From an uncultured virus (IMG/VR IMGVR_UViG_3300031963_000086) (lineage: Duplodnaviria; Heunggongvirae; Uroviricota; Caudoviricetes): a DNA stretch of 64,000 bases. The DNA is taken from IMG/VR virus record IMGVR_UViG_3300031963_000086, one strand, 5' to 3'. Position numbers and translations under genes: made by a program. Position 1 is the stretch's first letter; each line of letters starts with the position of its first letter. A model generated the notes under the pieces. The model was not told the DNA's origin. It saw only the letters and a program-made list of their open reading frames with translations, and searched no databases. Below, in pieces: positions 33,225 through 60,665 of the stretch.

Positions 33225-33275
33225 TTTCTTTGTTCTTTTTCCTTGCATAGGCACAGACCATTCGCAAGTCGAAAG

Positions 33276-33283: not shown

Positions 33284-33321
33284 TTTTATATAAATTAGTA
33301 GTAACCTACGAGGTTAACAAT

Positions 33322-33356
33322 AAAAGAAAATCGCAAGTAGTATTTTACTTGCGATT
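33322..33356 (-). terminator. Terminator after the packaging ATPase
   Basis: AATCGCAAGTA/TACTTGCGATT 11-bp stem plus U-rich tail on -. Confidence 0.65.
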
Positions 33357-33396
33357 AATTATTAAAAGATAATAAGAATGGGGGTTTGCGTACTAT

Positions 33397-42060: not shown

Positions 42061-43176
42061 TTAATCTTCAAATTTAATCATTTTTTCGTCATACTTACTC
42101 TTGTCAACGTACATATCGTAAGCGAGTTTATACCTATCCGACAAAACGTCTTTGGCTTCGGCTTGTGCCTCTCTATCGCCTCTATCCGCTTTATCCATAA
42201 GTTGACTTAAATATAACAATTTGCTTGCATCCAAAGTCCTATCCTTGTATGCAAAATGCGATGCTTGGTTTAGCAACTTCATACGCTTTGTCTTAATTTG
42301 AACCTCTACGGCCACACCTTCAAACAAAGTGATAAAGTGGTACGCCATATACCCCGCTTTGGGGTTTTCGTAATAGTCCTTAAACTCAAATATATCACCG
42401 ATAGCACCCGCAAGTATTTTCTTTTTCAAAGCGTCTAGTGAGCGGAAATTGTCTACCAAAATAGTTGTTCCCACCAAATCCGTTAATCCCTCTACATCAC
42501 CTTGGTTGGTGGTTTCAAGATTATTCATCTTTTTGTTTACCAACTTGTTCAAGATTGAATATGGAGTTTTGGTACGGGCGATGATTTTTGAACCTTTGGG
42601 AGCAATCTTTTTCAATCGCTCTACAATATCCATCATTGGCTTTCTTATCATCTTTTGATTCTCAATGACATTTTCTAGAACCTCCGAAAATTTGACTTGC
42701 TCAATGCTTTTCTCATCTCCCGTCTTGTATGGATTCGGGTCATCGACATTTTTGATACCATCTTTGTCAAAATCCCCAAAAACCGCGCGGTATTGCCCTT
42801 TGTCGTAAACCTTTTCATTTACGCTAACGACAACCTCCCCACCTTTGGCATAATATCCGCCCTCTAATAGCCCTTCCATCAATTCTTGAGCGGGGATAGG
42901 GTCAAAGTACATATCGCGCTCAAATCGTAGCCCAAAAGGGGGTAATTTGGCGTTTTCAATAGCACTCTTGCGGAAAAACCCCAACTTGATGTCTTTGTTG
43001 GTTTTTTCTATTGCAAAGATTTTTTCGGGGTCGTTTGGGTCTTGGTTTACTACATAGTAAAACACCCTACGCATAGGTTCAAAAATCTTAACAAATACCA
43101 TTTGGGATTTTAGGTCACTTCCGAAACCCCATTGGCTTTGTAATTTTACTTGGTCGGCTTTTGTAAATAGTTTCAT
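42061..43176 (-). CDS. DUF2958 - YAKGG linker - RelA/SpoT-type nucleotidyltransferase (small alarmone synthetase-like)
   Basis: N-part VKIF.P...LGFF..FERDMYF; C-part RTKT.YS..NK, D..G, DY.ENPK.GY.AYH, EVQIKT, H.AYK; TAATG coupling at 43176. Confidence 0.8.
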   Translation of the reverse strand: MKLFTKADQVKLQSQWGFGSDLKSQMVFVKIFEPMRRVFYYVVNQDPNDPEKIFAIEKTNKDIKLGFFRKSAIENAKLPPFGLRFERDMYFDPIPAQELMEGLLEGGYYAKGGEVVVSVNEKVYDKGQYRAVFGDFDKDGIKNVDDPNPYKTGDEKSIEQVKFSEVLENVIENQKMIRKPMMDIVERLKKIAPKGSKIIARTKTPYSILNKLVNKKMNNLETTNQGDVEGLTDLVGTTILVDNFRSLDALKKKILAGAIGDIFEFKDYYENPKAGYMAYHFITLFEGVAVEVQIKTKRMKLLNQASHFAYKDRTLDASKLLYLSQLMDKADRGDREAQAEAKDVLSDRYKLAYDMYVDKSKYDEKMIKFED

Positions 43177-46100
43177 TATTTCATTGCTTTTGCACGTTGT
43201 AAAGCATCTTTCCATGCTTCACCCTCTTTGCGTATTTGTTTTGCTTTTGTGAAAATATCCACCCCACGCTTTTCTTTGGTATTCATATTTGGGTTCTTGA
43301 TAACCTCCGCCCAAATGTTTTCCCATCCGTTTGCTTTGGCTACCGCATAAGTAGAGTTGCCATCGTACACGCGATACTTACCTTGGCTCTTGTAAAGAGT
43401 GATAGGCTTGCGCTTATCCATTTTGCCATCGTAAGCCATCTTCATATATTTCTCGGCATTAGCGATACCCTCCGCACGCGCGCGAAGCGGAATTATGTTC
43501 GACATAGGAATAACCTTTGTACTACGGGTCTTGATGAAATACTTGCCCAAATCTTCGGGGAGTTCGCCTCCGTGTTCCATCTTGGCAAGTTGTTGGCGAT
43601 ACACTTTTGACGCTACTTTTTTTCCAACTTCCTTGGCTTCTTTTTTGTCGTAGGTTTTACCATACTCATCTTGATATTTGGGGGCTACCTTTTTGCCTTC
43701 GTAATTCTTGGCAACCTTATTAGAAAGTCCCTCAAATCCAATTTTGCCACCTTCGGCAAATGGCACTATTGGCAAATCCACATTTTTTGGATTCCAATTA
43801 GACGTGTAGCCAAACTTAGCCTTACCTTCTTCAAACATTTTAACGTAGTTTTTGTACTCCGCTTCACCATTGTAGCCACGCAAGGCAAGGTAGTTTCTTA
43901 AACTATGCTCATTCTCATCGGTAAGCACATCGCTTACTTTTTTCCTTTCGGCTTTGGTAAGTTGCTTGTAAATTTTATTAATCCCCAACCTTTGATACTC
44001 ATCGGCTAAATCTTGTTGCAAGGTGTCGGATGCGTAAATTTCACTTCCGCTTTGAATTGATAATTTGTCCCACGCTTCATTAGATAATGCGGTCAATTGG
44101 TTGGCAACCTCATTCTTGTCAAACTTGGCTTTTGTTTCATTCATCCCCGCATCTACAAGTGCTTTTTTGCTCACCCAAAATCCATTCTTAGGCTTGAACT
44201 CAATAGTTTCTTTGTTGTTGCTATCACGATATACCACTTGATTAACATCGGCTCTTTTGATGTAGGTGTAGCCTTTTGACAAACTACCACCATCTTCCAT
44301 TTTGTGCAACCCGTCAAGGAAATCCTTTTTATCAATTGTTAAATAATCCTTTGACCCGCTCTTATTGGGGTTTTTAATAACGATTAATTTCAAGTCCCTT
44401 CTATTGGTGTAATCGCCCGTTGGTTTTTTTGCATTTTTATTCGCAAAATACAGATATGATTCTTTGTAAGCATAATCAATACTTATCGGCTTACCACCAC
44501 GTCTACCATTTTTAAAATATTGTGTTCTATCAGCATATGGATTGTATTTTGCTTTGTACATAATATTATCCTCTCCCCAATACGGGCTTCTTACATCGGG
44601 AAGTGTTTTCTTAAATTCTTCTAAGGACATTATTTGCCCACCTTTGGCGTATTCCTCATCCTTGAAAAACTCCAACTCTTCCGCGGAATATGTCTTTTCC
44701 GAACCATCGGGGAATTTCAAATGAAATCTACGACCATAAGGCTTAATGACATAACCCATTTTGTTTTCTTCTATCACCAATGCTTTGTCACCCACAAACA
44801 CATCTTGCCATTTAACTTTACCACCATCGGCCATGTAGCCACCTTTGGCATACTCCCCCTCCCTTGTGTGATTCGCAAATCTATTTTTAATGTCTTTGTC
44901 CAACCCTTTCCAATCGGAATTGTATGCTTCAATAATTTCTTTATTCTTTAATTCTTCATCTCCGCGATACGCTTCAATAATATCTCGGTGGTCATACAAA
45001 AAATGTTGTCTTTGAGATTTTGTCAAGTTGTTCCAAATGTCTTCGGGGGTTCTACCATCATATTGGTCTACGATTTTACCACCTTTGGCCATTTTGTAAT
45101 AGTCATCTTTGAAATCTTCATAAGCATTTTCCCACGCCTCAATTTCATTATTCCCATATTTGGCCATCGCAATTTTGCTACCTCCATTATACCACCATTT
45201 AGTAAATTTCTCGTGAACTCCCGATTTTCTATCTCGGTCTAAATATTTGGCTTCTATGGTAGAATCAATTTTTGCAAAATCTTCCGCATCTAAATAACCT
45301 TTTGACTCAAAAGCATTATTGTAATCTTCTTCAGTCAATTGACCACCATCGGCCATATAGCCACCATTCATGAAACTACGATACATCGTTATACCCTTTT
45401 CGTCTTCAACAACGATGCGGGTATTACTCGGCATTACATTACGCTTTAACGAAGCGAAAACCATAGCCGTTTCAAAGTCGGGGAAAGTGTTGTGTACTCT
45501 TCTTGAACCATCCCCTTTGATTTCAATAACGGAATACTTTTCTTGAAACTTATCGCTTGGGTGAATCAATCCACCATCTTCTAACCAAGGTTTAGAGCCA
45601 TAGGTGGGGGCTTTTCTATCAATGCGGTTTTCGCGATACTCATAGTACCTACGACCTCCTTTTGACTTGCCGTATTGGTTACTCCAACCCTTTTGAGAAA
45701 CTCTCCTACCGCTCTCGCGTGCCTTTCTTTCGCTATCAATCAATGGGTCACTCTTTCCACCACCTTTGCTTCTTCTAGCACTATTAAAGTCCTTGAATAA
45801 AGGGTCGTTGGCAATCGTGTCCATCAAAGAATCCAACTTGCTCTTTGTCGCTTGAGCAACTTGCTTTTTTTGAGCGGGGGTTTTAGGCTTTGCGGGTTCT
45901 TCGGTCTTGAAAATGTCCGCATTTTTTGCCTTTGCTTTCGCTATAAATACATCCAATAACTTTTCGGCCTTGGCTTGGTTTTCTTCGTTCTTGTCATTGT
46001 TAAGTGCTTTCTCAATTTTGGCAAGTAAATCTTTTGACTCTTGTACCTTGATTTTTGATTTATCAATGGAGTCAAGTTTCTTTTTGGTTGATTCTTTCAT
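43176..46100 (-). CDS. Polyvalent protein (974 aa) with ~10 [MFYL]xxGG linkers and a C-terminal ParB/Srx-like domain
   Basis: MADGG/YAKGG/MEDGG/FAEGG/MEHGG repeats; KPITL..YRVYDGN near the end. Confidence 0.7.
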   Translation of the reverse strand: MKESTKKKLDSIDKSKIKVQESKDLLAKIEKALNNDKNEENQAKAEKLLDVFIAKAKAKNADIFKTEEPAKPKTPAQKKQVAQATKSKLDSLMDTIANDPLFKDFNSARRSKGGGKSDPLIDSERKARESGRRVSQKGWSNQYGKSKGGRRYYEYRENRIDRKAPTYGSKPWLEDGGLIHPSDKFQEKYSVIEIKGDGSRRVHNTFPDFETAMVFASLKRNVMPSNTRIVVEDEKGITMYRSFMNGGYMADGGQLTEEDYNNAFESKGYLDAEDFAKIDSTIEAKYLDRDRKSGVHEKFTKWWYNGGSKIAMAKYGNNEIEAWENAYEDFKDDYYKMAKGGKIVDQYDGRTPEDIWNNLTKSQRQHFLYDHRDIIEAYRGDEELKNKEIIEAYNSDWKGLDKDIKNRFANHTREGEYAKGGYMADGGKVKWQDVFVGDKALVIEENKMGYVIKPYGRRFHLKFPDGSEKTYSAEELEFFKDEEYAKGGQIMSLEEFKKTLPDVRSPYWGEDNIMYKAKYNPYADRTQYFKNGRRGGKPISIDYAYKESYLYFANKNAKKPTGDYTNRRDLKLIVIKNPNKSGSKDYLTIDKKDFLDGLHKMEDGGSLSKGYTYIKRADVNQVVYRDSNNKETIEFKPKNGFWVSKKALVDAGMNETKAKFDKNEVANQLTALSNEAWDKLSIQSGSEIYASDTLQQDLADEYQRLGINKIYKQLTKAERKKVSDVLTDENEHSLRNYLALRGYNGEAEYKNYVKMFEEGKAKFGYTSNWNPKNVDLPIVPFAEGGKIGFEGLSNKVAKNYEGKKVAPKYQDEYGKTYDKKEAKEVGKKVASKVYRQQLAKMEHGGELPEDLGKYFIKTRSTKVIPMSNIIPLRARAEGIANAEKYMKMAYDGKMDKRKPITLYKSQGKYRVYDGNSTYAVAKANGWENIWAEVIKNPNMNTKEKRGVDIFTKAKQIRKEGEAWKDALQRAKAMK

Positions 46101-46104
46101 CGGG

Positions 46105-48072
46105 TTAAAATTCTAAGTTATCTAAATCTTCTTCGTTTAGGTCAAACTCCAAAGAGTCGTCATTTAATTGTTGTTCTAATAAGTCCAAATCTACTTCATC
46201 TTCGGTGATTTCGGAAATGGGTGGTTCTTGAGAAACTTCGGGTTCATCGCTTGGTATTTCACCAACTTTTGTCCAACGCTGAACCCCGCTTTTCGTAATT
46301 GTAACACGCCATTCGTTTCCATCGTTTCCAAATCGCTTAGTTCCCACAGGGTAAATAGTTGCGCTCTCGCTAGGTGATGGTCTTAAACTTGACGCTTTTT
46401 GTTTTTGGGCTTCTTCAAATTTTAATTGAGTTAGCAATTCGCTTCCTTTAGTGTCTATGTAATATTCCCTACCAAAAGTATTTGTTTGGCTTTTGACCAA
46501 CCCCATGCCTTCCATGACTTGTAAATCTTTTTCTAAAGTCGGCTCACCACTCAAACCATATTCGGTGTAAGTTATGGGGACAATCACATCGTATAGTTGC
46601 CTATAAAGTTCACTAATTGTTACATAATCATGTGTTTTGCTAATTACTTCGGATAGTTGTTTTAGAATACCCTCCATTCGGTGTTGAGGCAAAATATATT
46701 GTGGTGGTTGTGATTGTGTTTTCAAACCATCAAGTACGTCTTTACCTTGTTGACTTAAACGATAGGTGTAACCTTTTATACCAATACTTGCAAATCTAAA
46801 TTCTAAATACCCTTGGGCATACAACAAATCCAAATCTTGTTGTAAACTTGGGCTAGTGGGAGTTAAATCGTCTTGATACACCGAATAATTTTTGGGCATC
46901 ATTTCCCTAATGTACCCCGAAATTTCATTTATTGAAACGAACCCATCACCTATTTTTGTTGCGCTCGCTTCTTGCACCGCTTCTAAAATGCTTATTTGCA
47001 AATCGGTTAATTGTGGTTCACTCGGCTCTACTTCGGGATTTAAGGCTAATAAATCTTGACCTTTAGGACTTACATTATACTCGTTGCGTACTCTTGTGAC
47101 CAAACCTCTTTTTTCTAAATCATCCAATATCGTGTTTTGAGCATCAATGTATTCTTGTTTTGTAAGCACATTGGGAACACCCTTTTCTTTTAAAATGTCT
47201 TCAATAGTCACCCAATCGCCTTTTTCCCCTTTCAATTTTTTAATCATTCGCAAATATGGAACGTCTAAATTTTCACTCGGCTCTTCTTCGTTTGGATTGA
47301 CTTCAAATTGTCCATCTTCGGGCAAATTCTCCTCAAACCAATTCATTGCCGTGTCGTAGCCTTTGTTGGTTAAGCGAATAGAGTCGGTATTCTTGCTTGG
47401 GTCGGTTTCAACAAGCCTATCCGACAACAACTTTACTACAATACCAAAAAATTTGTTGCGGGGTATGTCAAATTGATGTTTAACCGCGTTTGTGGTTAAA
47501 TCATCTTGGCTCAATAACTTATAGTCACCACCATCGTAATAATCGGCCATCCGTAGTAACATTTCCAATTTGAGGTCTTCATCACTTGGGCCTATTTCCT
47601 CAACTTGTTTGTTTTGCAATTCATAACTATTAATATATTCTTGACCCGCATTAGTAATTTTATATATAGAACCCGCTACTCTTGACACTAAATCTAGCGC
47701 TTCTAAATCATCAAGTTTCTCTTGCACATACGATTCAAAGTTTTTTAGAAGAGAAATATCATCTTCCAAACCCACTTCATTCATAATAGTGCGGACAATA
47801 TTATTACTTGTAACCGCATTCACTTTGGTCAAAGTTAATATTTCCATTCTTTTAAGAAAGGCATAATCGGATTCCTTTCTAATAGGAGTTGGCTTTTTGT
47901 CAACTACCTCAATTGGTTTTTGAATAATAATGTCCTCTCCACCAAACTTTTTGGCCAACAAATTAAGGGCTTTTGATATAGCACTATACAAAGGGGGATT
48001 GTCCACCTTGATTTGCTCTAATTTCTCTTGATTGACATTTTGCCAACCGCCTAATGCTTCTAAAACTCCCAT
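46105..48072 (-). CDS. Tandem winged-helix repeat protein with an acidic tail
   Basis: Five L...GLV....Y.LT..G...L-type units; RPSP..SAT..PVGT...GNDGN.W......GV.RW motif. Confidence 0.65.
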   Translation of the reverse strand: MGVLEALGGWQNVNQEKLEQIKVDNPPLYSAISKALNLLAKKFGGEDIIIQKPIEVVDKKPTPIRKESDYAFLKRMEILTLTKVNAVTSNNIVRTIMNEVGLEDDISLLKNFESYVQEKLDDLEALDLVSRVAGSIYKITNAGQEYINSYELQNKQVEEIGPSDEDLKLEMLLRMADYYDGGDYKLLSQDDLTTNAVKHQFDIPRNKFFGIVVKLLSDRLVETDPSKNTDSIRLTNKGYDTAMNWFEENLPEDGQFEVNPNEEEPSENLDVPYLRMIKKLKGEKGDWVTIEDILKEKGVPNVLTKQEYIDAQNTILDDLEKRGLVTRVRNEYNVSPKGQDLLALNPEVEPSEPQLTDLQISILEAVQEASATKIGDGFVSINEISGYIREMMPKNYSVYQDDLTPTSPSLQQDLDLLYAQGYLEFRFASIGIKGYTYRLSQQGKDVLDGLKTQSQPPQYILPQHRMEGILKQLSEVISKTHDYVTISELYRQLYDVIVPITYTEYGLSGEPTLEKDLQVMEGMGLVKSQTNTFGREYYIDTKGSELLTQLKFEEAQKQKASSLRPSPSESATIYPVGTKRFGNDGNEWRVTITKSGVQRWTKVGEIPSDEPEVSQEPPISEITEDEVDLDLLEQQLNDDSLEFDLNEEDLDNLEF

Positions 48073-48383
48073 TACATTACTATTAATTCGTTCGCTTCAA
48101 TTGGGGTGCATTCGCCCAAGAAAGTGTATCGCTCGTAGATATTCTTGAACACATCGTTCAACACAACCAACTCGCCCGTATCTTGTATTTCTACAATATT
48201 GATTTCCAATCTCCTATCTTTTACCAAGCCAAATTGCTTGTCATATTTTACAAATATGGACGTGGGGAAATTTGGATTTGTCATTATCATTAAGTTGGTA
48301 ATGCTACCATATAGATTAGCAAAGGTGGCAATATTAGCCATCAATTTTTTTAATCCAATTTCTTGTGCTTGAGTAATTTCCAT
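48072..48383 (-). CDS. Hypothetical protein
   Basis: 103-aa ORF in the operon. Confidence 0.6.
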   Translation of the reverse strand: MEITQAQEIGLKKLMANIATFANLYGSITNLMIMTNPNFPTSIFVKYDKQFGLVKDRRLEINIVEIQDTGELVVLNDVFKNIYERYTFLGECTPIEANELIVM

Positions 48384-48387
48384 TTTT

Positions 48388-50025
48388 TTAACTTCTCAAT
48401 TTTATATCATTATATAGCAATTCCGCTCTCTCATCCAATCGGCTAATAGTTTCATCATCGGTAGCAAACAAAGGTTGACTTGCGTAAGTAGTTGCATCTT
48501 GAATAATTCTATTCAAATAGTTCTCATAATTATACTCGCGATTGAAATTTGTAGATAGCCCTTCTTCGGCAAGAATTGAATTTACCAAATTATTTTGAAT
48601 GATGTCATTTTTTATAGCCATTTCAAGAGCGTTGTTTTGCAAGGTTTGGTCTACAACAATTGTTAAATAAGAATTTATATCATCAATACTTATTCTCAAT
48701 TCATCTATGATTTTTTGCATCTCTTTACGTGGCTCTTTCGCATTCATAACCATCAAGGTATCACGACATCTCCCCGCACATATTTTCATCCACCATTCAA
48801 AAAATGTTCTCGCAACAACACTATTTTCAAGAATGTCTTTCCAATCACCATTTACTTGAATATTAGAATTGTTTCTTATAGCGGATGTAAAAATTCTTCT
48901 CGTACTTGATAAATAACTTCTTATGCTTTGAGAGTGGAAAAACAATTGGGAATCCTCTTGAATTTCTTTACTCTTCCAAATTCCCGCTTGGACATAAACT
49001 TGGTATTTCTCCTTGTACCGCGCAAATGCTTCCAAATATCTTTCTTGCGTTTGGTCGGGGAATCCATAAGGGTCAATATTTCTCTCAAGTTCCATTCTCA
49101 TCATGTGATTGACAATTGGTTGGTACAAATTGCCTGAATTGTTTTGACTTACCGATAGCGATGACACCCAATCTAAATCTTGTCCAAAATCTTTTACAAT
49201 TATCGGGGCAAAAATGAAATCGTTAGTAGATGATGCCCTTCCCATCATTTTAACTAATTCCCTATACATCGGCAACTCGGCATTTGTTAATCTATCGTAT
49301 TGTCTTAAATTAACGGACTCCCGAGGATTACAAAACCTTGTCATATAAACTCTTGTTTTAATACCTATTGACTCAAAATATTGAGCGGTCATTAGTGCGG
49401 GTAATTGGCGAATGGCATACTCATCTTCACCCTCCAACGAGGTAAAATAAAATAAACTATAAATTTCCGCATACTTGACTTTTCCACCCGTTCGTTTGAA
49501 TTTCAAATAAACATCCTTGGTGGTTGTAGCAAATTTTAATTTAGCATCTTTGTCCCCATCTTGTAAAGCGGTCGTGCCTTTTTGTCTTTTATCCAATACA
49601 TAGGTTTTGCCATTGTATGTGTAGACAAAACTTTTAATACCACCGATGGTGACATTATCTACAAGGTTAGGAGGCACTACCCCCGATGGTAACTCAAAAC
49701 TTGCAAATAAATCGGGATAATCCGTTTCAAGTTCTTGCGAATAATATTCTTGAACTCGGTATAATCCCTTACTCGCTAACGAAAAATCAAAAACCCCAAT
49801 TGGGCGTGATGTAGTTTCAAGACGACTTTTATCTTGCTCACCTCCCAAGTTGAACTTCATACCCATATCAAAAATGATAGGGCCTATTTCACTTTCATAA
49901 ATAGTTCGGTATTCATCTACCTTTTGTTTATATAGAGTTTCGCCAATAGCATTTTGCCACGCTTCGGGCGTGTCATAAGCCCAACATAATATTGGGACTC
50001 CCCTCCAACTACTGAAAAACCCCAT
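48388..50025 (-). CDS. Putative partner of the MoxR ATPase (degenerate VWA-like?)
   Basis: 545 aa, directly downstream of the AAA+ gene; canonical MIDAS not seen. Confidence 0.45.
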   Translation of the reverse strand: MGFFSSWRGVPILCWAYDTPEAWQNAIGETLYKQKVDEYRTIYESEIGPIIFDMGMKFNLGGEQDKSRLETTSRPIGVFDFSLASKGLYRVQEYYSQELETDYPDLFASFELPSGVVPPNLVDNVTIGGIKSFVYTYNGKTYVLDKRQKGTTALQDGDKDAKLKFATTTKDVYLKFKRTGGKVKYAEIYSLFYFTSLEGEDEYAIRQLPALMTAQYFESIGIKTRVYMTRFCNPRESVNLRQYDRLTNAELPMYRELVKMMGRASSTNDFIFAPIIVKDFGQDLDWVSSLSVSQNNSGNLYQPIVNHMMRMELERNIDPYGFPDQTQERYLEAFARYKEKYQVYVQAGIWKSKEIQEDSQLFFHSQSIRSYLSSTRRIFTSAIRNNSNIQVNGDWKDILENSVVARTFFEWWMKICAGRCRDTLMVMNAKEPRKEMQKIIDELRISIDDINSYLTIVVDQTLQNNALEMAIKNDIIQNNLVNSILAEEGLSTNFNREYNYENYLNRIIQDATTYASQPLFATDDETISRLDERAELLYNDIKLRS

Positions 50026-50028
50026 ACC

Positions 50029-51420
50029 TTAAATAACCCGTGTAAGTTGAGTTGCTTCGTAATTAGCAATCATTTGATTGGCTTCATCAACCTCTTGTTG
50101 AGTGTTGAAATTTGGCGCACTTGGGTCGTAAGGCATTTTGTCCTTTTCGGCTACAATACGCTTAAAGGCATCAATATCCAATTCGGCAATCAATGCTTGA
50201 CGAGTAGATGGCTTGAAAAGTTCAAAGAAAGTATTTAATGAGTCGATTAGTGTTTTTGGGTTGGTGATGACAGTTGCAACGCCTTTTTCTAGTTTCTCTT
50301 TTTCAATACGATATACCTCGTAAGTGGACTTCAAATTTTGCATCAAACGAATAGATACAAACGCTTGGTTTGTAGCATTCAAACGAATGATGGCCTCACG
50401 GAGTTTTGTTCCAAATATCCAAATAAAGGCGAATCCTTTCATAATTGAACCAAACTCATACCCATAGTCAACAAATACCTTGTATGTGCTACCGATGAAT
50501 CGGTCTTGTAAAGACAAATCTTGCTTAAAGTTGGCTTCGTAGTCGGGGTCGATGGTGTTCAATGGCACGTTACCTGCAGCCATGATGAAGACATTCCCTT
50601 TATACTTACGCTCACCACGACCATTCAAAATAGATGGTGGCAACTTTTGTCCCGTATTAGGGTCAAAGTCATATTCTTTAATTTTTGCCAAACCTTCGTT
50701 CAACAAACCCGCAGTATTGGGGTCAATTTTTGGCAACTCATCCAACAACAATACACAACCATCAACTTTGGTCATATTGCCATTGTCATCAATAATCTCA
50801 TTTGACCAAGCCATCGTGAATTTACCTTCTTGATACCCATCAATAGTTTGACCACCAATAATATCAATCGGAGATGTAAATTGGTTACAATTGATTGTGA
50901 TGATTGACCAACCCAAGATTTTTGCAATACCCCCCGCACTAAAGGTTTTACCCGTTCCCGCACCACCATACAAATAAACATTGTTTTCCGCTTGCATATC
51001 ACTCAATATCTTTTGAATGATAGGGCGTGTCAAAAAATCGTTATTAGTAGTAGTCGTGGTCTTAACCGATGCGATGTTGCGGATAGTCAATTCAACCTTA
51101 CGGGTTGAGTTCAACAACGCTTTCAAACTATCGGAAAGGTCATTGAAATTGATTTTGCGCTTGGCTAACTCATCAATAACAACTTGTCTAATGTCATTAA
51201 GATTGGCAACACCACCGCCTTGTACGGCCATGTTCAAGGCATCCAATACCGCTTGTACTTCGGGGTCTAATCCCGTAACACCCGCGTTTGCGGATTGAAC
51301 TTGAACGCTTCCGATGGATGCAAGTTTTTCTAATTCTTTTTGTGCTTGTTCACGCACGAGCGGTACGGGAGAATTTTTTGCCAAATCCTCTAATCTCGCT
51401 ATGTTTGATTGATTATCCAT
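50029..51420 (-). CDS. MoxR/CbbQ/CobS-like AAA+ ATPase
   Basis: YGGAGTGKT, LLLDE, AAGN, D.SLQDRF, VSIR. Confidence 0.85.
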   Translation of the reverse strand: MDNQSNIARLEDLAKNSPVPLVREQAQKELEKLASIGSVQVQSANAGVTGLDPEVQAVLDALNMAVQGGGVANLNDIRQVVIDELAKRKINFNDLSDSLKALLNSTRKVELTIRNIASVKTTTTTNNDFLTRPIIQKILSDMQAENNVYLYGGAGTGKTFSAGGIAKILGWSIITINCNQFTSPIDIIGGQTIDGYQEGKFTMAWSNEIIDDNGNMTKVDGCVLLLDELPKIDPNTAGLLNEGLAKIKEYDFDPNTGQKLPPSILNGRGERKYKGNVFIMAAGNVPLNTIDPDYEANFKQDLSLQDRFIGSTYKVFVDYGYEFGSIMKGFAFIWIFGTKLREAIIRLNATNQAFVSIRLMQNLKSTYEVYRIEKEKLEKGVATVITNPKTLIDSLNTFFELFKPSTRQALIAELDIDAFKRIVAEKDKMPYDPSAPNFNTQQEVDEANQMIANYEATQLTRVI

Positions 51421-51438
51421 TTGATTTTTTTTTGCTAA

Positions 51439-52356: not shown

Positions 52357-52358
52357 GA

Positions 52359-55300
52359 TTATTTATTAATTAAACCCCCCTTAGCCATCAAGAAACCTTG
52401 GTTGGCGGAATATAGCATTTTGCTTCTTTGATTACTTGCAAGTTTTGTTTGGTTCGGGAAGAATGTAGTCCATACCTCCGTTTGATATTGGTTGCCCGTT
52501 GCTTGTGGGTTATTCTCATAAAAATGAAATCCATCATAAACACCTTGCGCTTTGATTGCTTCAATAGCCCTTGGGGAGTTACGGATGTAAGCCCAAACTT
52601 CCATTGGTGGCACATTTGGTTGTAAAAAACGTGCATCAAAACCTAATTGCTCGGCCGTTTGACCCGTCTTGACAAATAAGTAGTCAAAGAAATCTTTTGG
52701 TTCTATTTTATCAATACCAAAATAGGTCATATCCAATGGGTTTCTAATGTTCAAGAAAAATGGCAATACATATCCTTGAGTTGCATTCCTTTGCCCCTTA
52801 ATCGTAGCAAACCATTCGGCATAATCGGGATTGACCGCAAAATACGATGTTGGAAAAGAATCAAACCTTTCACGCTCAAACGCTCTACCTAATCCTTGAT
52901 AAACCACAAGTGGCTCATAACCTTCGGTCATCACTTTACTCACGGGTACGATATTATCATATCCCGACAATCCCTTAAAGTCATATGCACTTGCAAAATC
53001 ACCAAACCACTCTTTAAAAATTGTGGTTTGAGCCAAATCATAATTGTATTTATCCAACAATGTTTCTTGACCATTTGGTTGAAAACCATCGCCATATGGG
53101 GGCGTGAAATCGGGCCTATCTCTCAAAGTGACACTATCGGCATCAAGCATTGTTTGTATAATAGCCATAGCGTATTTCCCGTCATAATTTGCGCTTGAGG
53201 ACTTTATCAAATCTTGGGAGTTTTCGGTAGCGTAAATGATGTCTTTTAGTTTTTGGAACTCGGTCAATTGTTGACGCAACTTCATTTTTACCTCAAAGTC
53301 AAAATCCGATGTTATAGAGATAAGATATTGCAAGTCGTAAATATTCTTGTCCAACTCGCTCTTGTTACCCAAAGGCTTTTTGTTTTTGCCCACGGGTGGT
53401 TTTTTGCTTTGAACTTCTTGCGGTTTTTCCAATTCCACCACATCACTTGCCTCTAACAAAACCAAATCTTTGGCTTCCCATTCTCCTTTTAATTCACCAA
53501 CTTTGTCGGGGACAAAATACCGAATTGTGTACATATTGCCTTCGGGATTTGCGGGTCTTTTCATTGCGGGTACGGAACGGATTCCAATTACTTCACCACG
53601 CAATAAATCAAGATTTTCATCACGACCTTGGAAACCCACAATTTGCATTTCTTGTTCCGAAATTTCCACTTTGTCACCAACTTTCAAGTTTTGCTCAATT
53701 CGTACCTCCATACTTCCCTTCGCCTTGGATGTTTGGCTCACATAGTTGGCTCTATAATAAAGCACACTAACCATAAGCCAATTGTACCATATAGTACCTT
53801 CATATATTTTTAATTCAAAGTCATCAAAATCTAATACCATTTTGACATCCTCTATCATCATTGGCTCTTCATCAATATTGTAAATTGGCCTTATGATAGG
53901 AAAATCATTTTCATTGCAAAATCTCGCCAATAAATAGCCAACTACTCTACAATAATCATCTATTGATAATTTGATGTTGAAATCAATTATTCCACTTTCA
54001 AACCACTTCTTCCAAGTTGTTGGGTCATTGTAAAACTGATAACCCATTTTATCGAATAAATAGTAAAGTATATTTGCGCCACCTAAATTTTCTACTCTAT
54101 CTATAATTAATTTTGGAACTCCATATTGTTGTTTTTTGTTTAACAATAATGTTCTTGATGGTTGACTTGTAATCATTTCTAGATTACGCATACCTATTCT
54201 TGGGTCAAACGACATTTCAATACCCGTATTTTTTTGAATTGTTACCAATTCTTTTACGGGTATATCCAAGTATCGGTCTTCATAAAAAGGTGCGTTTGGA
54301 TTATTTATATCGGTAGTGTAATATTCCCTTACAATTTTACTTATTAAATCAACTAAAGAATTATTGCCGTCATTTTTTACTAGTTTATTATTGTATGCTT
54401 TAATATCATAACTACTACCAAATTTTAATGATTTAACACCATATTGGAACTTGTCTTCTTTTTTGGCGCGGGTCACTTTCTTTTTAACACCTTCTTGATA
54501 AACAAAATTTGGCTCTAATGCTTCATACTCATTAAAAAACTCTAATATTTGATTTTGAAAATCGCGATTGCTCACAAGCCATTCAAATTTAGTTCTTGTA
54601 TCCGTATTATATTGAGATGGCACACTTTGTAGGCCATTGTCCAAAATGGCCGTAAACCTATCATACATGGCCATAGTGCCTTGCATCCGAGGTATAAGCA
54701 TGGATTTTTTCGGTATTTGACTAAATGTCCTTGGAGAACCATAAGTAGCACTCGTGTCTTGTGGTTCAATTAAAGTCAAAAAATCCTTTCGGTTGTAGTA
54801 TTGATAACTCGTCTTTGCAACAAATTCAAGTTTTGACCATTTTGTAAATCTCTTAAAAACTGGTCTACCGCTATATTTATTATAAATTTCCGCTCTAAAT
54901 ATTTGCAAATCTTCGGGATTGTCAAATATGTTGACATAATAAAACTCTTCAACCCCTTTTGTTGGGAATACAATCTTATTTTTTAATTTGAAATCGGTCA
55001 CATCGCCACCATACTCAAACTCTATTTCATCCATTTCTCCCATTTCATCAAGTTCTCCACCCAAGGCCATTTCGCTCAAAATATCGTGGTCGGACATCAT
55101 TCTACCCCCGTAGTTGTATTGATTTCCACTCGCCATAATTTCGCCACCATCCTCAAACGATACACCACCCCCGCTTTGGTTAATACGAGAGAGTATTTCT
55201 CGGTTGGTAAGCATTTCACCTTCAAATTCGCGTGTAGTGCCATCGGACACGGCATTGCGTGTGATAACGACTTCCCCGCCTTCCATTTCCAAGGGTTGTC

Positions 55301-57815
55301 CCGTTGCTTTGTTGATTGCTTTGATTCCGCCTTCGGAATGTCTACGACCTACTAAATATCCACCCGCTTTTCCCATCGTGTGTTTTACTTCTTTGTCCAT
55401 ATTACTTAAATTACCACGAATATCCTTATTTTTTGCGACTACTTCGCCACCTTGCTCATACTTCAATAAGTCATCGTCTTGAATATATGCGCTTTTAACC
55501 TTCACGCCCGCCTTCTTCAACAAGAATTTATTCAACCTTGCCAAGCCCCACGCTTGTCGTGAATTAGGCGCACCGCCACCGATAGTTGGTCGATGCGATT
55601 TTGAATATGCCCCCATACCTCTACGAACCACCGCTTTTGCGGTTGACAAACTAACCTTGTCGCTTGGGTGCTTTTCATTGTATTCATCAACCTTGTTCTC
55701 AATGGCTTTTTCTAGCGCATCGTTGAACTTAATTGATTTAGCATTTTGACTATCGCTTGCGCTTCCTTTGGTGTTGGTTTTGCTACCATACCTTCTATCG
55801 GATGCGGGTGCGGGTGTTTGTGCTATTGTGCGACCGCCTTTGTCAAATCTAATATCGGGGTTGCCACTATCAAATGTGGTATTCGTTCCATCGGCAAGTT
55901 TAATTTGGTTTGGTTCAAAAACGCCATAATTTAAGTTAGGTTTTGATTGATTGTTGACTTGTTCGTATGTAATAAATCCATTGTAATTGTTTGATTTTAA
56001 ATAATCTTGCATTACTTCTAACTCTACGACCCCCCAACTTGAATCGGTTTTAGTTAATATGTAAAATAAAAAATCTTCATCCGACATATTACTATCATAT
56101 TTAGATTTCCATTCATCCAAGCCATCCAAATAATTGTACTCTATAAAATCTTGTACTACACTTTCGTTAAAAATAGAACGAATCTTTTTTGACTCACTTA
56201 TTGAAAGTGATTTCGGGTCAAACAATTTAATGGCTTTTAGGAAAAATGGTTTGACACTACCCGTGGTAAAAGTATATCTTTTAGCGTGTTCATATCCTTT
56301 TGAAAAGAAAAACGCTTTGACATTTTCCTCGTCAATCGCATCTAAGTCAAACTCGTAAAATTCTTGGGTATATTTTGTCCCGTGATAAACCACCATTGGC
56401 TCACCATTTTCATCCACTACCTTACTTGCGGTTTTTGGGTCGTTTTCCCAATCTCCAAACCACGCCTTAAATTCGCGTGTACGCACTAACTTGTATTGTT
56501 CGGGCGTTAAGTTACTTTCCTTTCCGTTGGGTGCAATTAAACCACCCTTATCAAATCTAATATCGGGGTTGTTCACGACCTTGTAAAAATCATTGTTGCC
56601 CTCACATATTTCATATCCGTTACTTTGTAGCCAATTTTTAATCATAGCAACATCATCCAAATTTGATTCTATTGAATCATCTTTTGAAAAAGATGCTTTT
56701 TGTGTAATATGACCAAACATTACATCGTGTCCATTTTCTATAGCAAAATCATTCAGATACTTCAAAACCTTTTTACCAATACCTTTTAATCTTTGATTTT
56801 CGGAAATAAATATAGTTTGAATGTACAAAGGATTTTCGGATTTAAGCCCATACAAATTTGCGTGTTTAGGTGTGGTTGGATATACTTTAAGTTCAATTTC
56901 ACCTTGGTCTATTAAATTTTCTATTTCCCCACCTTTGGCAAACCGAATATCGGGATTGTTGCCATCAAAGGTTGTGTTACTACCATCGGCTAACTTGATT
57001 TCATTTGGAGATAGCGCAATAAACGATTTGCCTTTCCCCTCGTATTTGTTGTTGTACACAAACCCGACCGAACTACCATATTTTGATTTAATGTAGTCCC
57101 TAATGATAGCATTATCTTCTCGACTATATAAAGATAAAAACCCTTTTTGTTTTGCAACTTTTTCTTCAATAATGTTATCGGATATTAACTCATCAATATA
57201 TCGTTGTGGATATTGCCATTCTCCCGCATCACTCATTTCAAATAAAACTCTTATGTTTAGGAAAAATGAATTGACGATTGATTTTCTTTTTGGCAAAACT
57301 CCTTTACTTTCTACTCTATTTTTTGCTTGTTCTTTCGTGCCAAAATGAAAACCTAAATCCGCTTTTTGGTAATCAAATATATCAAAGTTGGTTTCAACAA
57401 TAGCCCCATGATGTACCACCAATGGCTCACCATTCTCATCCACTACCTTACTCGCATTTTTTGGGTCGTTTTCCCAATCGCCAAACCACGCCTTAAATTT
57501 GGGTGTGCGAACTAAATGCCATTGTTCGTGTGTTAGGTTACTTGGTTTCCCGTTGGGTGCTAAATGCTTTGACATATCACCACCTAAGTGCATTTTCTCA
57601 ATGTTATCCAATCGGTCATAATAGTCGGGGAACTCTACCAAGTGGTCAAGTGCTATTCGCCTTGCTTCGGCAACGCTCTCGGTGTGTTCAAGTTCGTGTT
57701 TAATACCCTTTTTTAATTGGTGCTTTAATTGCTCGGCATTCATATTGTGTAGTTTTGCTACTTGAGCCAAAGTCATGCCCTCGCTTTTGCCCCCTTTTAA
57801 GTATTTATTTACCAT
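52359..57815 (-). CDS. Giant polyvalent protein (1818 aa): DUF5661-like N-terminus, three ADP-ribosyltransferase-like modules, GNAT, other modules, >=11 [MFY]xxGG linkers
   Basis: FKAWFGD..SKVVDENGEP.VV.HG..F..FL..IK modules; QRLKGIGKKVL GNAT motif; ELEHT..IALDHL.E.PDYY. Confidence 0.75.
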   Translation of the reverse strand: MVNKYLKGGKSEGMTLAQVAKLHNMNAEQLKHQLKKGIKHELEHTESVAEARRIALDHLVEFPDYYDRLDNIEKMHLGGDMSKHLAPNGKPSNLTHEQWHLVRTPKFKAWFGDWENDPKNASKVVDENGEPLVVHHGAIVETNFDIFDYQKADLGFHFGTKEQAKNRVESKGVLPKRKSIVNSFFLNIRVLFEMSDAGEWQYPQRYIDELISDNIIEEKVAKQKGFLSLYSREDNAIIRDYIKSKYGSSVGFVYNNKYEGKGKSFIALSPNEIKLADGSNTTFDGNNPDIRFAKGGEIENLIDQGEIELKVYPTTPKHANLYGLKSENPLYIQTIFISENQRLKGIGKKVLKYLNDFAIENGHDVMFGHITQKASFSKDDSIESNLDDVAMIKNWLQSNGYEICEGNNDFYKVVNNPDIRFDKGGLIAPNGKESNLTPEQYKLVRTREFKAWFGDWENDPKTASKVVDENGEPMVVYHGTKYTQEFYEFDLDAIDEENVKAFFFSKGYEHAKRYTFTTGSVKPFFLKAIKLFDPKSLSISESKKIRSIFNESVVQDFIEYNYLDGLDEWKSKYDSNMSDEDFLFYILTKTDSSWGVVELEVMQDYLKSNNYNGFITYEQVNNQSKPNLNYGVFEPNQIKLADGTNTTFDSGNPDIRFDKGGRTIAQTPAPASDRRYGSKTNTKGSASDSQNAKSIKFNDALEKAIENKVDEYNEKHPSDKVSLSTAKAVVRRGMGAYSKSHRPTIGGGAPNSRQAWGLARLNKFLLKKAGVKVKSAYIQDDDLLKYEQGGEVVAKNKDIRGNLSNMDKEVKHTMGKAGGYLVGRRHSEGGIKAINKATGQPLEMEGGEVVITRNAVSDGTTREFEGEMLTNREILSRINQSGGGVSFEDGGEIMASGNQYNYGGRMMSDHDILSEMALGGELDEMGEMDEIEFEYGGDVTDFKLKNKIVFPTKGVEEFYYVNIFDNPEDLQIFRAEIYNKYSGRPVFKRFTKWSKLEFVAKTSYQYYNRKDFLTLIEPQDTSATYGSPRTFSQIPKKSMLIPRMQGTMAMYDRFTAILDNGLQSVPSQYNTDTRTKFEWLVSNRDFQNQILEFFNEYEALEPNFVYQEGVKKKVTRAKKEDKFQYGVKSLKFGSSYDIKAYNNKLVKNDGNNSLVDLISKIVREYYTTDINNPNAPFYEDRYLDIPVKELVTIQKNTGIEMSFDPRIGMRNLEMITSQPSRTLLLNKKQQYGVPKLIIDRVENLGGANILYYLFDKMGYQFYNDPTTWKKWFESGIIDFNIKLSIDDYCRVVGYLLARFCNENDFPIIRPIYNIDEEPMMIEDVKMVLDFDDFELKIYEGTIWYNWLMVSVLYYRANYVSQTSKAKGSMEVRIEQNLKVGDKVEISEQEMQIVGFQGRDENLDLLRGEVIGIRSVPAMKRPANPEGNMYTIRYFVPDKVGELKGEWEAKDLVLLEASDVVELEKPQEVQSKKPPVGKNKKPLGNKSELDKNIYDLQYLISITSDFDFEVKMKLRQQLTEFQKLKDIIYATENSQDLIKSSSANYDGKYAMAIIQTMLDADSVTLRDRPDFTPPYGDGFQPNGQETLLDKYNYDLAQTTIFKEWFGDFASAYDFKGLSGYDNIVPVSKVMTEGYEPLVVYQGLGRAFERERFDSFPTSYFAVNPDYAEWFATIKGQRNATQGYVLPFFLNIRNPLDMTYFGIDKIEPKDFFDYLFVKTGQTAEQLGFDARFLQPNVPPMEVWAYIRNSPRAIEAIKAQGVYDGFHFYENNPQATGNQYQTEVWTTFFPNQTKLASNQRSKMLYSANQGFLMAKGGLINK

Positions 57816-60661: not shown

Positions 60662-60665
60662 ATGT

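What the first reader, a model, noticed from the sequence alone, without database searches (positions are those of the whole stretch)
42061..57815. Viral polyproteins with domains punctuated by [MFY]xxGG linkers: candidate protease-processed effector cargo
Seen: 1818-aa ORF has YLKGG, MHLGG, FAKGG, FDKGG x2, YEQGG, FEDGG, YNYGG, MALGG, FEYGG, MAKGG; 974-aa ORF has LEDGG, FMNGG, MADGG x2, MAKGG, YAKGG x2, MEDGG, FAEGG, MEHGG; also YAKGG (42061 ORF), MAQGG (36680) and terminal FKRGG (5533). Many fall at recognisable domain edges (ART-like, GNAT, ParB, RelA/SpoT). Established: adenovirus and ASFV proteases cut after GG in virion (poly)proteins, and phage polyvalent proteins carry such effector domains. 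Inference: cargo packaged as polyproteins and cut into host-takeover enzymes, with the motif possibly also a packaging tag. No GG-specific cysteine protease was recognised in this window.
Basis: partly seen in the sequence, partly recalled or inferred. Interest (0 to 1): 0.85.

Follow-up and report, generated by a model that had tools for sequence, protein, structure and literature searches.

The report
Conserved GG joint motif in viral effector proteins
Two giant multi-enzyme proteins of an uncultured bacterial virus have a short conserved peptide (bulky residue, two variable residues, then two glycines) at nearly every joint between their enzyme modules; this may mark where a viral zinc protease cuts them apart, but no cutting has been shown.

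Summary
All listed [MFY]xxGG sites exist. They are enriched in the 1818-aa protein (11 of 19 GG, p=1.5e-6) and the 974-aa protein (9 of 15, p=9e-6), but not in the other ORFs (12 of 106 against 12.2 expected).

- **Position:** the sites sit in disordered linkers (9 of 10 in pLDDT<50 segments). They fall where homology to mosaic relatives starts and stops.
- **Conservation:** they are kept far better than their flanks (GG 89% against 47-50% identity).
- **Lineage:** the motif is not general to ART-PolyVal polyvalent proteins. It marks one viral lineage, with 5.8 sites per 1000 aa against 0.9 elsewhere.
- **Host virus:** the lineage lacks detectable tailed-phage genes.
- **Protease candidate:** the lineage always encodes a 262-aa zinc-peptidase candidate, at 28483-29271 in the window. 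It has an invariant HEFSH and an M48-like fold (BepA Z 8.9).
- **Absent:** no Ulp1-like cysteine protease and no in-cis MPTase domain were found.

Cleavage and virion packaging remain untested. Conserved copies 2-4 residues from C-termini fit a recognition tag as well as a cut site.

Earlier notes of this scan had flagged this viral group and its zincin on other DNA. They had not flagged the GG motif.

The parts
52359..57815 (-). P0001, an 1818-aa polyvalent protein. Modules in order: DUF5661 (18-74), ART-PolyVal 1, a GNAT-like stretch (about 327-373), ART-PolyVal 2 (468-648), an unassigned module, a GG-rich stretch (786-937), a large unknown domain, and ART-like 3 (about 1580-1805). It has 11 [MFY]xxGG sites, at window 57789-57803, 57579-57593, 56928-56942, 56541-56555, 55833-55847, 55446-55460, 55143-55157, 55104-55118, 55056-55070, 55005-55019 and 52374-52388.
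43176..46100 (-). P0002, a 974-aa mosaic protein of about 9 small modules with no Pfam family. One domain has a ParB/sulfiredoxin-like fold; I infer it is the C-terminal module. It has 10 sites (9 [MFY], 1 L-type), at window 45570-45584, 45360-45374, 45342-45356, 45078-45092, 44838-44852, 44820-44834, 44637-44651, 44286-44300, 43746-43760 and 43566-43580.
42061..43215 (-). P0003, 384 aa. An N-terminal domain is followed by the linker LLEGGYYAKGG (window 42838-42870) and a RelA/SpoT nucleotidyltransferase domain (214-326). Its reading frame overlaps the end of P0002.
28483..29271 (-). Candidate trans-acting protease, 262 aa. It has an N-terminal beta-sandwich (1-96) and a C-terminal zincin domain with invariant H189-E190-x-x-H193, E203, E205 and D207. 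It has no transmembrane segment visible by eye.
50029..51420 (-). AAA_5 (MoxR-like) ATPase, 463 aa, encoded between the two polyvalent genes and conserved in all 4 relatives compared. It is a possible handling factor for the polyvalent proteins (inference only).
48388..50025 (-). 545-aa protein of no known family, next to the AAA_5 ATPase and conserved in 3 of 4 relatives.
6520..6534 (+). FKRGG, 2 residues from the C-terminus of ORF 5494-6543 (349 aa). The tail is conserved as FKRGGEI and FKDGGVV in two relatives.
32367..34209 (-). Core block that places the finding in its virus. It holds a 231-aa beta-rich, highly conserved coat-protein candidate (32367-33062) and a 270-aa Walker A/B ATPase with a weak HerA/DUF87 match (33397-34209).
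   Evidence: leads.

Best explanation
The [MFY]xxGG peptide is a conserved short linear motif. Its fuller consensus is [YFM]-[A/K/E]-[K/D/E]-G-G-x-[IVLM], often doubled as [YF]xxGG-[YM]-MAxGG. It marks the joints, and often the ends, of interchangeable modules in the polyvalent effector proteins of one lineage of uncultured bacterial viruses of about 60-100 kb.

The most likely reading is that a trans-acting factor recognises it and cuts the multi-enzyme proteins into separate modules. The best candidate for that factor is the lineage's own stand-alone zinc metallopeptidase (window 28483-29271). These polyvalent proteins lack the in-cis MPTase peptidase domain that other polyvalent proteins carry.

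Shown here:
- the motif is real;
- it lies in disordered linkers;
- it coincides with the joints where modules are shuffled;
- it is under purifying selection at the protein level;
- it is specific to this lineage;
- it co-occurs with the zincin.

Inferred only:
- that the zincin is an active protease;
- that it, or any protease, recognises the motif;
- that cutting happens;
- that the products are virion cargo.
For: 1. Enrichment. P0001 has 11 of 19 GG preceded by M/F/Y and P0002 has 9 of 15. The other ORFs sit at the chance level.

2. The motif is pervasive in relatives. It accounts for 1170 of 2208 GG (53%) in 119 P0001 homologs and 1218 of 1792 GG (68%) in 150 P0002 homologs. Chance would give about 12%.

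3. Joints of homology. For P0002, 128 of 231 internal HSP starts and 164 of 218 internal HSP ends lie within 8 residues of a motif, where only 15.5% of the sequence lies. For P0001 the figures are 425 of 835 and 515 of 831, against 8.7%.

4. Flexibility. 9 of 10 P0002 sites lie in pLDDT<50 segments, which make up 21% of the residues (p=7e-6).

5. Selection. 115 of 136 aligned P0002 sites are retained. GG identity is 0.89 and a hydrophobic residue at -3 is kept in 0.93 of cases, against 0.50 elsewhere and 0.47 in the 8-residue flanks. The codons differ between sites.

6. A protease candidate. The zincin has an invariant HExxH and acidic residues across 56 sequences. Its model has pLDDT 90.8. 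Its C-terminal domain matches BepA (Z 8.9, 116 residues aligned), a putative Zn peptidase 3c37 (Z 6.8) and Ste24 (Z 6.3). Members give sub-threshold Pfam matches to PhageMetallopep (11 of 56), M56 (8 of 56), M48 (7 of 56) and SprT (6 of 56).

7. Co-occurrence. The zincin is found in 11 of 78 viral records that hold ART-PolyVal relatives. Motif density is 5.76 per 1000 aa in those 11 and 0.91 in the other 66 that have a marker ORF (Mann-Whitney p=2e-7). The two exceptions are fragments estimated 17% and 26% complete.

8. No in-cis MPTase-PolyVal domain in 5 relatives or in the window proteins. Iyer et al. 2017 propose MPTase-driven processing of polyvalent proteins (PMC5512222, passages read).
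Against: - No cleavage product, proteome or virion data exist for this uncultured lineage.
- The co-occurrence with the zincin is confounded by ancestry, because it rests on a single clade.
- The zincin's specificity is unknown, and the M48-type relatives it resembles are not known to me as GG-specific (recalled).
- Conserved motifs lie 2-4 residues from C-termini: MAKGGLINK in P0001 is kept in 11 of 12 aligned homologs, 19 homologs have exactly 4 residues after their last GG, and ORF 5494-6543 ends in FKRGGEI. Cutting there would separate nothing.
- Small stand-alone single-module proteins keep the motif on both sides.
- In 108 of 114 doublets the second motif starts with Met, and 8 homologs begin exactly with MxxGG. 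That points to gene fusion and fission, or to internal starts, rather than to protease preference.
Confidence: 0.38

Rival explanations
1. The motif is a recognition or docking tag that is not cut. Each module carries short peptides that bind a common partner. That partner could be the capsid interior or membrane, the zincin's beta-sandwich domain, or the MoxR-like AAA+ ATPase and its 545-aa neighbour encoded between the polyvalent genes. The binding would serve to load, unfold or localise the proteins, and many copies would add avidity.
For: - Conserved copies lie 2-4 residues from C-termini and 4-6 residues from N-termini.
- Stand-alone 125-170-aa proteins keep flanking motifs.
- Tandem doublets occur 110 times at 6-residue spacing in 150 P0002 homologs.
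- The AAA_5 ATPase is conserved in 4 of 4 relatives, inside the polyvalent gene cluster.
- A conserved motif is also present in a non-polyvalent protein (ORF 5494-6543).
Against: - A single tag per protein would be enough for packaging, yet the motif sits at almost every joint.
- No partner has been identified.
- The termini are only modestly enriched. 15 and 25 of 119 P0001 homologs have a motif at the N- or C-end against 8.1 expected. For P0002 homologs there is no enrichment (21 and 6 of 150 against 17.8 expected).
Confidence: 0.25
2. The motif is a structural hinge and shuffling joint only. It is a preferred inter-module linker with a hydrophobic cap, a Gly-Gly swivel and a hydrophobic first residue of the next module. 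It travels with each cassette as modules are recombined, fused and split. No factor recognises it.
For: - Homology blocks begin and end at the motif.
- The same modules occur in many orders and protein lengths.
- 8 homologs start exactly with MxxGG.
Against: - The position-specific conservation is much stronger than in the flanks. In P0002 homologs, -3 is Y, M or F in 72% of sites and -2 is Ala in 52%. Retention is 0.89-0.93 against 0.47 in the flanks. This holds across modules of unrelated folds.
- The codons differ between sites, so similarity at the DNA level does not maintain the motif.
- Other ART-PolyVal polyvalent proteins manage without it.
Confidence: 0.25
3. The Met-type motifs (MAKGG, MADGG, MEDGG and similar) are internal translation starts. 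Individual modules would then be made directly from the long mRNA alongside the fusion protein, with no protease involved.
For: - 645 of 2388 motifs start with Met.
- The second member of a doublet is Met-type in 108 of 114 cases.
- 8 homologs begin with MxxGG.
- In P0002 the five Met-type sites each precede a module.
Against: - Most motifs (985 Y, 758 F) cannot be starts.
- Met alternates with F, Y and L at orthologous sites.
- No initiation signal was examined.
Confidence: 0.06

Closest known systems
Polyvalent proteins of phages and conjugative elements (Iyer, Burroughs, Anand, de Souza, Aravind 2017, PMC5512222)
   Same: Many unrelated effector domains sit in one polypeptide of a mobile element (ART-PolyVal, GNAT, ParB-like, RelA/SpoT). 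That paper predicts delivery with the DNA and processing into separate units.
   Different: That paper assigns processing to an in-cis MPTase zincin domain. No such domain is found here. The text has no occurrence of 'linker' or 'glycine'. A conserved joint motif and a stand-alone zincin are the new elements. The host virus also lacks detectable tailed-phage genes.
Adenovirus adenain and ASFV pS273R processing of core proteins or polyproteins at Gly-Gly sites
   Same: Virion or core precursors carry many short consensus sites ending in GG. The viruses are tailless and icosahedral.
   Different: Those enzymes are clan CE cysteine proteases, and none was detected here. The adenain consensus, as I recall it, puts the hydrophobic residue at P4 ((M/I/L)-x-G-G). 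Here it would be at P5. The candidate enzyme here is a metallopeptidase.
Prohead-protease processing of packaged internal proteins in T4 (gp21, capsid-targeting sequences) and phiKZ-like phages (recalled)
   Same: One morphogenetic protease trims many packaged proteins at a short consensus. Short N-terminal targeting peptides are removed. The YLKGG at residues 5-9 of P0001 would fit that pattern.
   Different: Those are tailed phages with serine-type prohead proteases and sites ending in Glu. No packaging has been shown here.
M48/M56-type zincins (BepA, Ste24, BlaR1) and Pfam PhageMetallopep
   Same: The C-terminal domain of the 262-aa protein shares the fold (BepA Z 8.9, rmsd 3.9, 116 residues) and has HExxH plus downstream acidic residues.
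   Different: No Pfam model reaches its threshold. The protein has no membrane segments that I can see. It carries an N-terminal beta-sandwich. Its substrates are unknown.

Membership tests
Polyvalent proteins (Iyer et al. 2017) | Two or more distinct effector-type domains in one polypeptide | tested here: met
   P0001 has three ART-PolyVal stretches (E 7e-32), DUF5661 (E 4.5e-15) and an acetyltransferase PHROG match (4.8e-5). The P0002 model has about 9 separate modules.
Polyvalent proteins (Iyer et al. 2017) | Encoded by a virus or conjugative element | tested here: met
   The window and its relatives are viral contigs.
Polyvalent proteins (Iyer et al. 2017) | MPTase zincin domain in the same protein (frequent, and proposed as the processing agent) | tested here: not met
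   No MPTase-PolyVal match in P0001-P0003 or in 5 whole relatives at E<=0.1.
Polyvalent proteins (Iyer et al. 2017) | Delivered into the host together with the DNA | not testable with these tools
   No virion proteome exists, and the lineage is uncultured.
Clan CE GG-site maturation system (adenain, pS273R, Ulp1-like) | A C48- or C5-type cysteine protease gene in the genome | tested here: inconclusive
   No Pfam peptidase hit in the 66 window ORFs scanned. Peptidase_C48 was found in 0 of 5 whole relatives at E<=0.1. A very divergent member could be missed.
Clan CE GG-site maturation system (adenain, pS273R, Ulp1-like) | Consensus with a hydrophobic residue at P4: (M/I/L)-x-G-G (recalled) | tested here: not met
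   The enriched position is -3 from the first Gly, which would be P5. The -2 position is Ala, Lys or Glu.
Clan CE GG-site maturation system (adenain, pS273R, Ulp1-like) | Cleavage after GG | not testable with these tools
   Needs proteomics or an in vitro assay.
Zincin metallopeptidase (M48-like), for ORF 28483-29271 | HExxH motif, invariant | tested here: met
   H189, E190 and H193 are invariant in 56 of 56 sequences.
Zincin metallopeptidase (M48-like), for ORF 28483-29271 | A third metal ligand (Glu or Asp) on a following helix | tested here: inconclusive
   E203, E205 and D207 are invariant, on helix 203-216. Which of them binds the metal was not determined.
Zincin metallopeptidase (M48-like), for ORF 28483-29271 | Zincin fold | tested here: met
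   VIA-align: 6sar_A BepA Z 8.9 (residues 125-256), 3c37_B Z 6.8, 4il3_B Ste24 Z 6.3. Foldseek found nothing at E<=0.001.
Zincin metallopeptidase (M48-like), for ORF 28483-29271 | Reaches a curated family threshold | tested here: not met
   Only sub-threshold Pfam matches (best E 0.0021). No sequence match to solved structures.
Tailed phages (Caudoviricetes) | Large terminase, portal, HK97-type capsid protein and tail genes | tested here: not met
   None was found in the window (62 ORFs against PHROGs; 66 ORFs against Pfam). None in relative G001, 94% complete (89 of 91 called ORFs against Pfam). None in G003, 100% complete (91 ORFs of 90 aa or more against PHROGs).
Tailless membrane-containing viruses with jelly-roll coat and FtsK/HerA-type packaging ATPase | Small packaging ATPase of the FtsK/HerA type | tested here: inconclusive
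   The 270-aa Walker A/B protein matches DUF87 only weakly (E 0.0033 in the window, 0.00018 in G001). No match to solved structures.
Tailless membrane-containing viruses with jelly-roll coat and FtsK/HerA-type packaging ATPase | Jelly-roll major capsid protein | not tested
Sequence and atlas searches gave nothing. Earlier scan notes claim this for other genomes.

The most novel reading that the evidence does not exclude
A large, tailless-type bacterial virus packs a set of multi-enzyme host-takeover polyproteins and matures them with its own virion zinc protease. The protease would cut at hydrophobic-x-x-Gly-Gly joints that also serve as loading tags. This would be a bacterial, metalloprotease-based counterpart of the Gly-Gly polyprotein processing of adenovirus and African swine fever virus. 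It would also be the trans-acting solution to the processing problem that other polyvalent proteins solve with a built-in peptidase.
Probability: 0.18. Interest if true: 0.85.

Novelty: new variant of a known kind. Interest (0 to 1): 0.64.

Why it matters
Polyvalent proteins are thought to be the first weapons a mobile element brings into a cell. How their many enzymes are separated and aimed has only been guessed at.

This lineage offers a simple, testable handle: a five-residue joint motif, thousands of natural variants, and a single stand-alone zincin to test against it. If the link holds, three things follow:
- it would define a cleavage or loading code for effector cassettes;
- module boundaries could be read directly from sequence in thousands of unannotated metagenomic proteins;
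- it would add a maturation system to a large, undescribed group of apparently tailless freshwater viruses.

If the link fails, the motif is still a useful marker of cassette boundaries and of this viral lineage.

Tried and rejected
- **HExxH in DUF5661.** HELEH at residues 40-44 of P0001 looked like a built-in mini-peptidase. The first His is kept in only 40 of 76 aligned copies, so it is not a zincin motif. The conserved pattern is E-x-E-H-T ... H-L-x-E ... Y-Y.
- **Joints kept by DNA identity.** I rejected this as the main force because the codons for the same peptide differ between sites.
- **Close relatives in reference phages.** The search found none for the region 40000-60000 and none for P0002. 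P0002 also has no relative in the viral contig collection by the close-relative scan.
- **Going beyond the window end.** A metagenome locus (L001) added 10 kb with no protease and no structural gene.
- **Zincin with a 50-residue P0002 linker segment and zinc.** The complex prediction returned no verdict (score 0.12, mark 0.32). It is neither support nor evidence against.
- **Foldseek on the zincin model.** Nothing at E<=0.001. The N-terminal beta-sandwich dominated the list.
- **Coat-protein candidate and ATPase.** Profile searches against solved structures, and one atlas look-up, gave nothing usable.
- **Literature.** Searches for NPDIR, cargo-protein processing in crAss-like phages, large tailless Bacteroidota viruses and the motif strings YAKGG, MAKGG, MADGG and FAKGG returned no relevant paper among the listings I saw.
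- **One family with the [FY]xN[AF]xG virion motif?** I considered whether the GG motif and the motif of the earlier notes form one family. They share A-D-G in some copies (YMADGG, FNNADGG), but the register of the aromatic residue differs. I left this as a lead.

Full report
**What is there**

The region 42061-57815 lies in one long run of minus-strand genes. It contains:
- P0001 (52359-57815, 1818 aa);
- a 305-aa proline-rich protein;
- an AAA_5 (MoxR-like) ATPase (50029-51420);
- proteins of 545, 103 and 655 aa;
- P0002 (43176-46100, 974 aa);
- P0003 (42061-43215, 384 aa).

Pfam finds three ART-PolyVal stretches and DUF5661 in P0001, and RelA/SpoT in P0003. It finds nothing in P0002. PHROGs adds an acetyltransferase match at residues 327-373 of P0001. 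These are polyvalent proteins in the sense of Iyer et al. 2017 (PMC5512222; I read the passages returned by a term search).

**The observation**

M, F and Y together make up 11.5% of the residues in the window's ORFs. Against that background:
- P0001: 11 of 19 GG are preceded by M/F/Y at -3 (p=1.5e-6).
- P0002: 9 of 15 (p=9.3e-6).
- The other 82 ORFs: 12 of 106, against 12.2 expected.

The glycine-rich ORF 11423-16033 scores 18 formal matches, but they belong to a different repeat, F[IV]GGG.

**The motif is a family trait**

P0001 has at least 3077 relatives at E<=0.001 among the 8000 candidates scored. P0002 has 1469 among cluster representatives.
- In the 119 listed P0001 homologs, 1170 of 2208 GG carry M/F/Y at -3 (53%).
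- In the 150 listed P0002 homologs, 1218 of 1792 do (68%). Chance would give about 12%.
- The fuller consensus is [YFM]-[A/K/E]-[K/D/E]-G-G-x-[IVLM].
- After ART modules the motif is preceded by N-P-D-I-R.
- A doublet at 6-residue spacing, such as YAKGGYMADGG, occurs 110 times in the P0002 set.
- Across the two homolog sets together, the second member of a doublet starts with Met in 108 of 114 cases.

**Where the motif sits**

The relatives are mosaics, and blocks of similarity to P0002 and P0001 begin and end at the motifs.
- P0002: 128 of 231 internal HSP starts and 164 of 218 internal HSP ends fall within 8 residues of a motif GG. Only 15.5% of the sequence lies that close.
- P0001: 425 of 835 starts and 515 of 831 ends, against 8.7%.

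An AlphaFold model of P0002 was built from 90 aligned sequences (mean pLDDT 74). It shows about nine confident modules separated by low-confidence segments. Nine of the ten motifs lie in pLDDT<50 segments, which hold 21% of the residues (p=7e-6). The tenth, MEHGG at 841, ends a helix next to a dip in confidence.

A Foldseek search of that model gave ParB, Noc and sulfiredoxin folds. For example, 6ky4 scored E 4.7e-3, probability 1.00, and TM-score 0.64 normalised to the target. It also gave weak Tudor-like matches, and nothing at E<=0.001. That the ParB-like part is the C-terminal module is my inference from the sequence.

In P0001 the motifs separate:
- DUF5661 from ART 1;
- ART 1 from the GNAT-like module;
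- the GNAT-like module from ART 2;
- ART 2 from the next module.

Four more motifs crowd residues 887-937, and one sits at each end of the protein.

**Selection**

In pairwise alignments of P0002 with 19 homologs, 115 of 136 aligned sites keep the pattern. GG identity is 0.89 and a hydrophobic residue at -3 is kept in 0.93 of cases. Identity is 0.50 at all other aligned positions and 0.47 in the 8-residue flanks. For P0001 with 16 homologs, 115 of 119 sites are kept. M, F, Y and L swap at the same site, and the middle residues vary. The codons for the same peptide differ between sites. Selection therefore acts on the peptide, not on the DNA.

**The motif belongs to one viral lineage**

A scan of viral contigs gave 78 loci that encode ART-PolyVal relatives. 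Using simple ART markers to pick the polyvalent ORFs, motif density falls into two classes.

A conserved 262-aa protein of the window (28483-29271) is found in 11 of the 78 records (10 of 50, 1 of 28).

| Records | Density per 1000 aa | Share of GG with the motif |
|---|---|---|
| 11 with the 262-aa protein | 5.76 (per-locus range 4.3-10.2) | 50% |
| 66 others with a marker ORF | 0.91 (median 0.81) | 18% |

The difference gives Mann-Whitney p=2e-7. One locus had no marker ORF. The only two high-density exceptions are fragments estimated 17% and 26% complete. This is one clade, so the link may be no more than shared ancestry.

**The 262-aa protein is a zincin candidate**

I found it by aligning core genes of the window with four relatives whose whole records I fetched.
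- It has more than 1384 homologs, all without a Pfam domain.
- In 56 aligned sequences H189, E190, H193, E203, E205 and D207 are invariant.
- The model is confident (pLDDT 90.8, pTM 0.89). It shows a beta-sandwich (1-96) and an alpha/beta-plus-helical C-terminal domain.
- An all-against-representatives structural search puts E. coli BepA first (Z 8.9, rmsd 3.9, 116 residues, model residues 125-256). A putative Zn peptidase 3c37 (Z 6.8) and Ste24 (Z 6.3) follow.
- Foldseek alone gave nothing at E<=0.001.
- Members give only sub-threshold Pfam matches, all to zincin families: PhageMetallopep 11 of 56, M56 8, M48 7, SprT-like 6.

Peptidase_C48 and MPTase-PolyVal are found in 0 of 5 whole relatives.

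**What kind of virus**

No terminase, portal, HK97-type capsid or tail gene was detected in any of these sets:
- the window;
- relative G001, 94% complete (89 of 91 called ORFs, Pfam);
- relative G003, 100% complete and with inverted terminal repeats (91 ORFs of 90 aa or more, PHROGs).

The conserved core (window about 24-41 kb) holds:
- many small proteins;
- a PAP2 membrane protein and an SLT transglycosylase;
- a 270-aa Walker ATPase with a weak HerA/DUF87 match;
- a very conserved 231-aa beta-rich protein.

I had reached a tailless-type reading before looking at earlier notes. Those notes, written on other genomes, say the same. They also mention the zincin and a second motif, [FY]xN[AF]xG, in coat and membrane proteins. 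In this window that second pattern occurs 13 times against 3.8 expected from composition, including twice in the arm of the coat candidate. I did not test the coat fold.

**How it most likely works**

The data show a conserved, exposed, lineage-specific peptide at cassette joints. They do not show what reads it.

I rank cutting by a trans-acting protease first (0.38), for four reasons:
- the modules are unrelated enzymes that should act on different targets;
- this lineage has lost, or never had, the built-in peptidase of other polyvalent proteins;
- it always carries a stand-alone zincin among its particle genes;
- consensus-site trimming of packaged proteins is established in T4-like and phiKZ-like phages, adenovirus and ASFV (recalled).

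Several findings count against this reading:
- MAKGG lies 4 residues from the end of P0001 and is kept in 11 of 12 aligned homologs.
- 19 homologs have exactly 4 residues after their last GG.
- FKRGGEI ends ORF 5494-6543 and is conserved at 45% overall identity.
- Single-module proteins keep the motif on both sides.

These fit a docking or loading tag (0.25). The AAA_5 ATPase and its neighbour inside the gene cluster are possible readers of such a tag. They also fit a pure hinge and shuffling joint (0.25). The Met-type second member of the doublets, and 8 proteins that begin with MxxGG, suggest fusion and fission at these points, or possibly internal starts (0.06).

**Compared with what is known**

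The proteins are members of the polyvalent class. The joint motif and the trans-acting zincin are not in the 2017 paper, whose text has no 'linker' or 'glycine'. The listings of four literature searches showed nothing relevant. The system is not a member of the clan CE GG-processing systems, because the enzyme was not detected and the spacing of the hydrophobic residue differs. It may nevertheless work like them.

**Limits**

- The relatedness of the sequences inflates all the conservation counts.
- The marker-based choice of polyvalent ORFs is crude.
- The zincin's activity, the packaging of the polyvalent proteins and the type of virion are all inferences.

Noticed in passing
window 24000-41000 (core block), with relatives G001 and G003: No terminase, portal, HK97-type capsid or tail gene was detected in the window or in two near-complete relatives. 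Instead there is a 270-aa Walker ATPase with a weak HerA/DUF87 match (33397-34209), a highly conserved 231-aa beta-rich protein (32367-33062), PAP2, SLT, LEA_2 and many small proteins. This looks like a large tailless, membrane-containing type of virus.
   Followed up: partly
window 57594-57764 (P0001 residues 18-74); L002:5395-6663: DUF5661 has an invariant pattern G-x3-E-x-E-H-T ... A-x2-I-A-L-x-H-L-x-E ... Y-Y in 76 copies, which suggests a small metal-binding helical domain. The first His of HELEH is not conserved. In Vibrio phage vB_VpaM_VPs20 the same domain sits inside a DUF2213 head-module protein, between the terminase gene and a DUF2184 protein.
   Followed up: partly
window 11423-16033 (-): A 1536-aa glycine-rich ORF with 105 GG and 14 copies of F[IV]GGG, in a stretch with GC skew -0.35. 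A relative (G002) has a 41% identical counterpart over 1061 aa. It may be a fibre or spike protein.
   Followed up: no
window 1-40; ends of G003: The window opens with tandem CGGTCGCGGGT units, which may mark a genome or contig end. Relative G003 has identical inverted ends of at least 80 bases whose sequence looks like the 3' part of a tRNA gene.
   Followed up: no
window 18520-20541 and 59399-62624; L001:3348-10057: The virus carries an unusually rich sugar and modification toolkit: a sulfotransferase, an APS-kinase-like and a cytidylyltransferase-like protein, several glycosyltransferases, FkbM- and TylF-type methyltransferases, a GDP-mannose dehydratase-type enzyme, and a C5 cytosine methylase. 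This suggests glycosylated or sulfated virion proteins, or modified DNA.
   Followed up: no
window 32367-33062, 25584-26345, 29470-29757, 30404-30622, 31160-31786: A second short motif, [FYW]x[NGS][AF]xG, occurs 13 times in the window ORFs against 3.8 expected. Two copies are in the N-terminal arm of the coat candidate (FVNADG, FMSANG). The 95-aa protein at 29470-29757 has FNNADGG and AIADGG, which resemble the MADGG of P0002.
   Followed up: partly
window 48388-51420 (-): A MoxR-like AAA_5 ATPase and a 545-aa partner of no known family are embedded between the polyvalent genes. The ATPase is conserved in 4 of 4 relatives and the partner in 3 of 4.
   Followed up: no
window 40559-41137 (-): A NUMOD4 plus HNH_3 homing-endonuclease-like ORF. 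Its best counterparts in relatives lie at other genome positions, as expected for a mobile insertion.
   Followed up: no
G001 (L083-L084), relative of the window: The relative carries five motif-rich large proteins. One is an 1828-aa protein with 23 [MFY]xxGG sites among 29 GG and no Pfam family. Another has a Zeta-toxin/AAA_33 module. The effector set therefore differs between relatives while the joints stay the same.
   Followed up: partly
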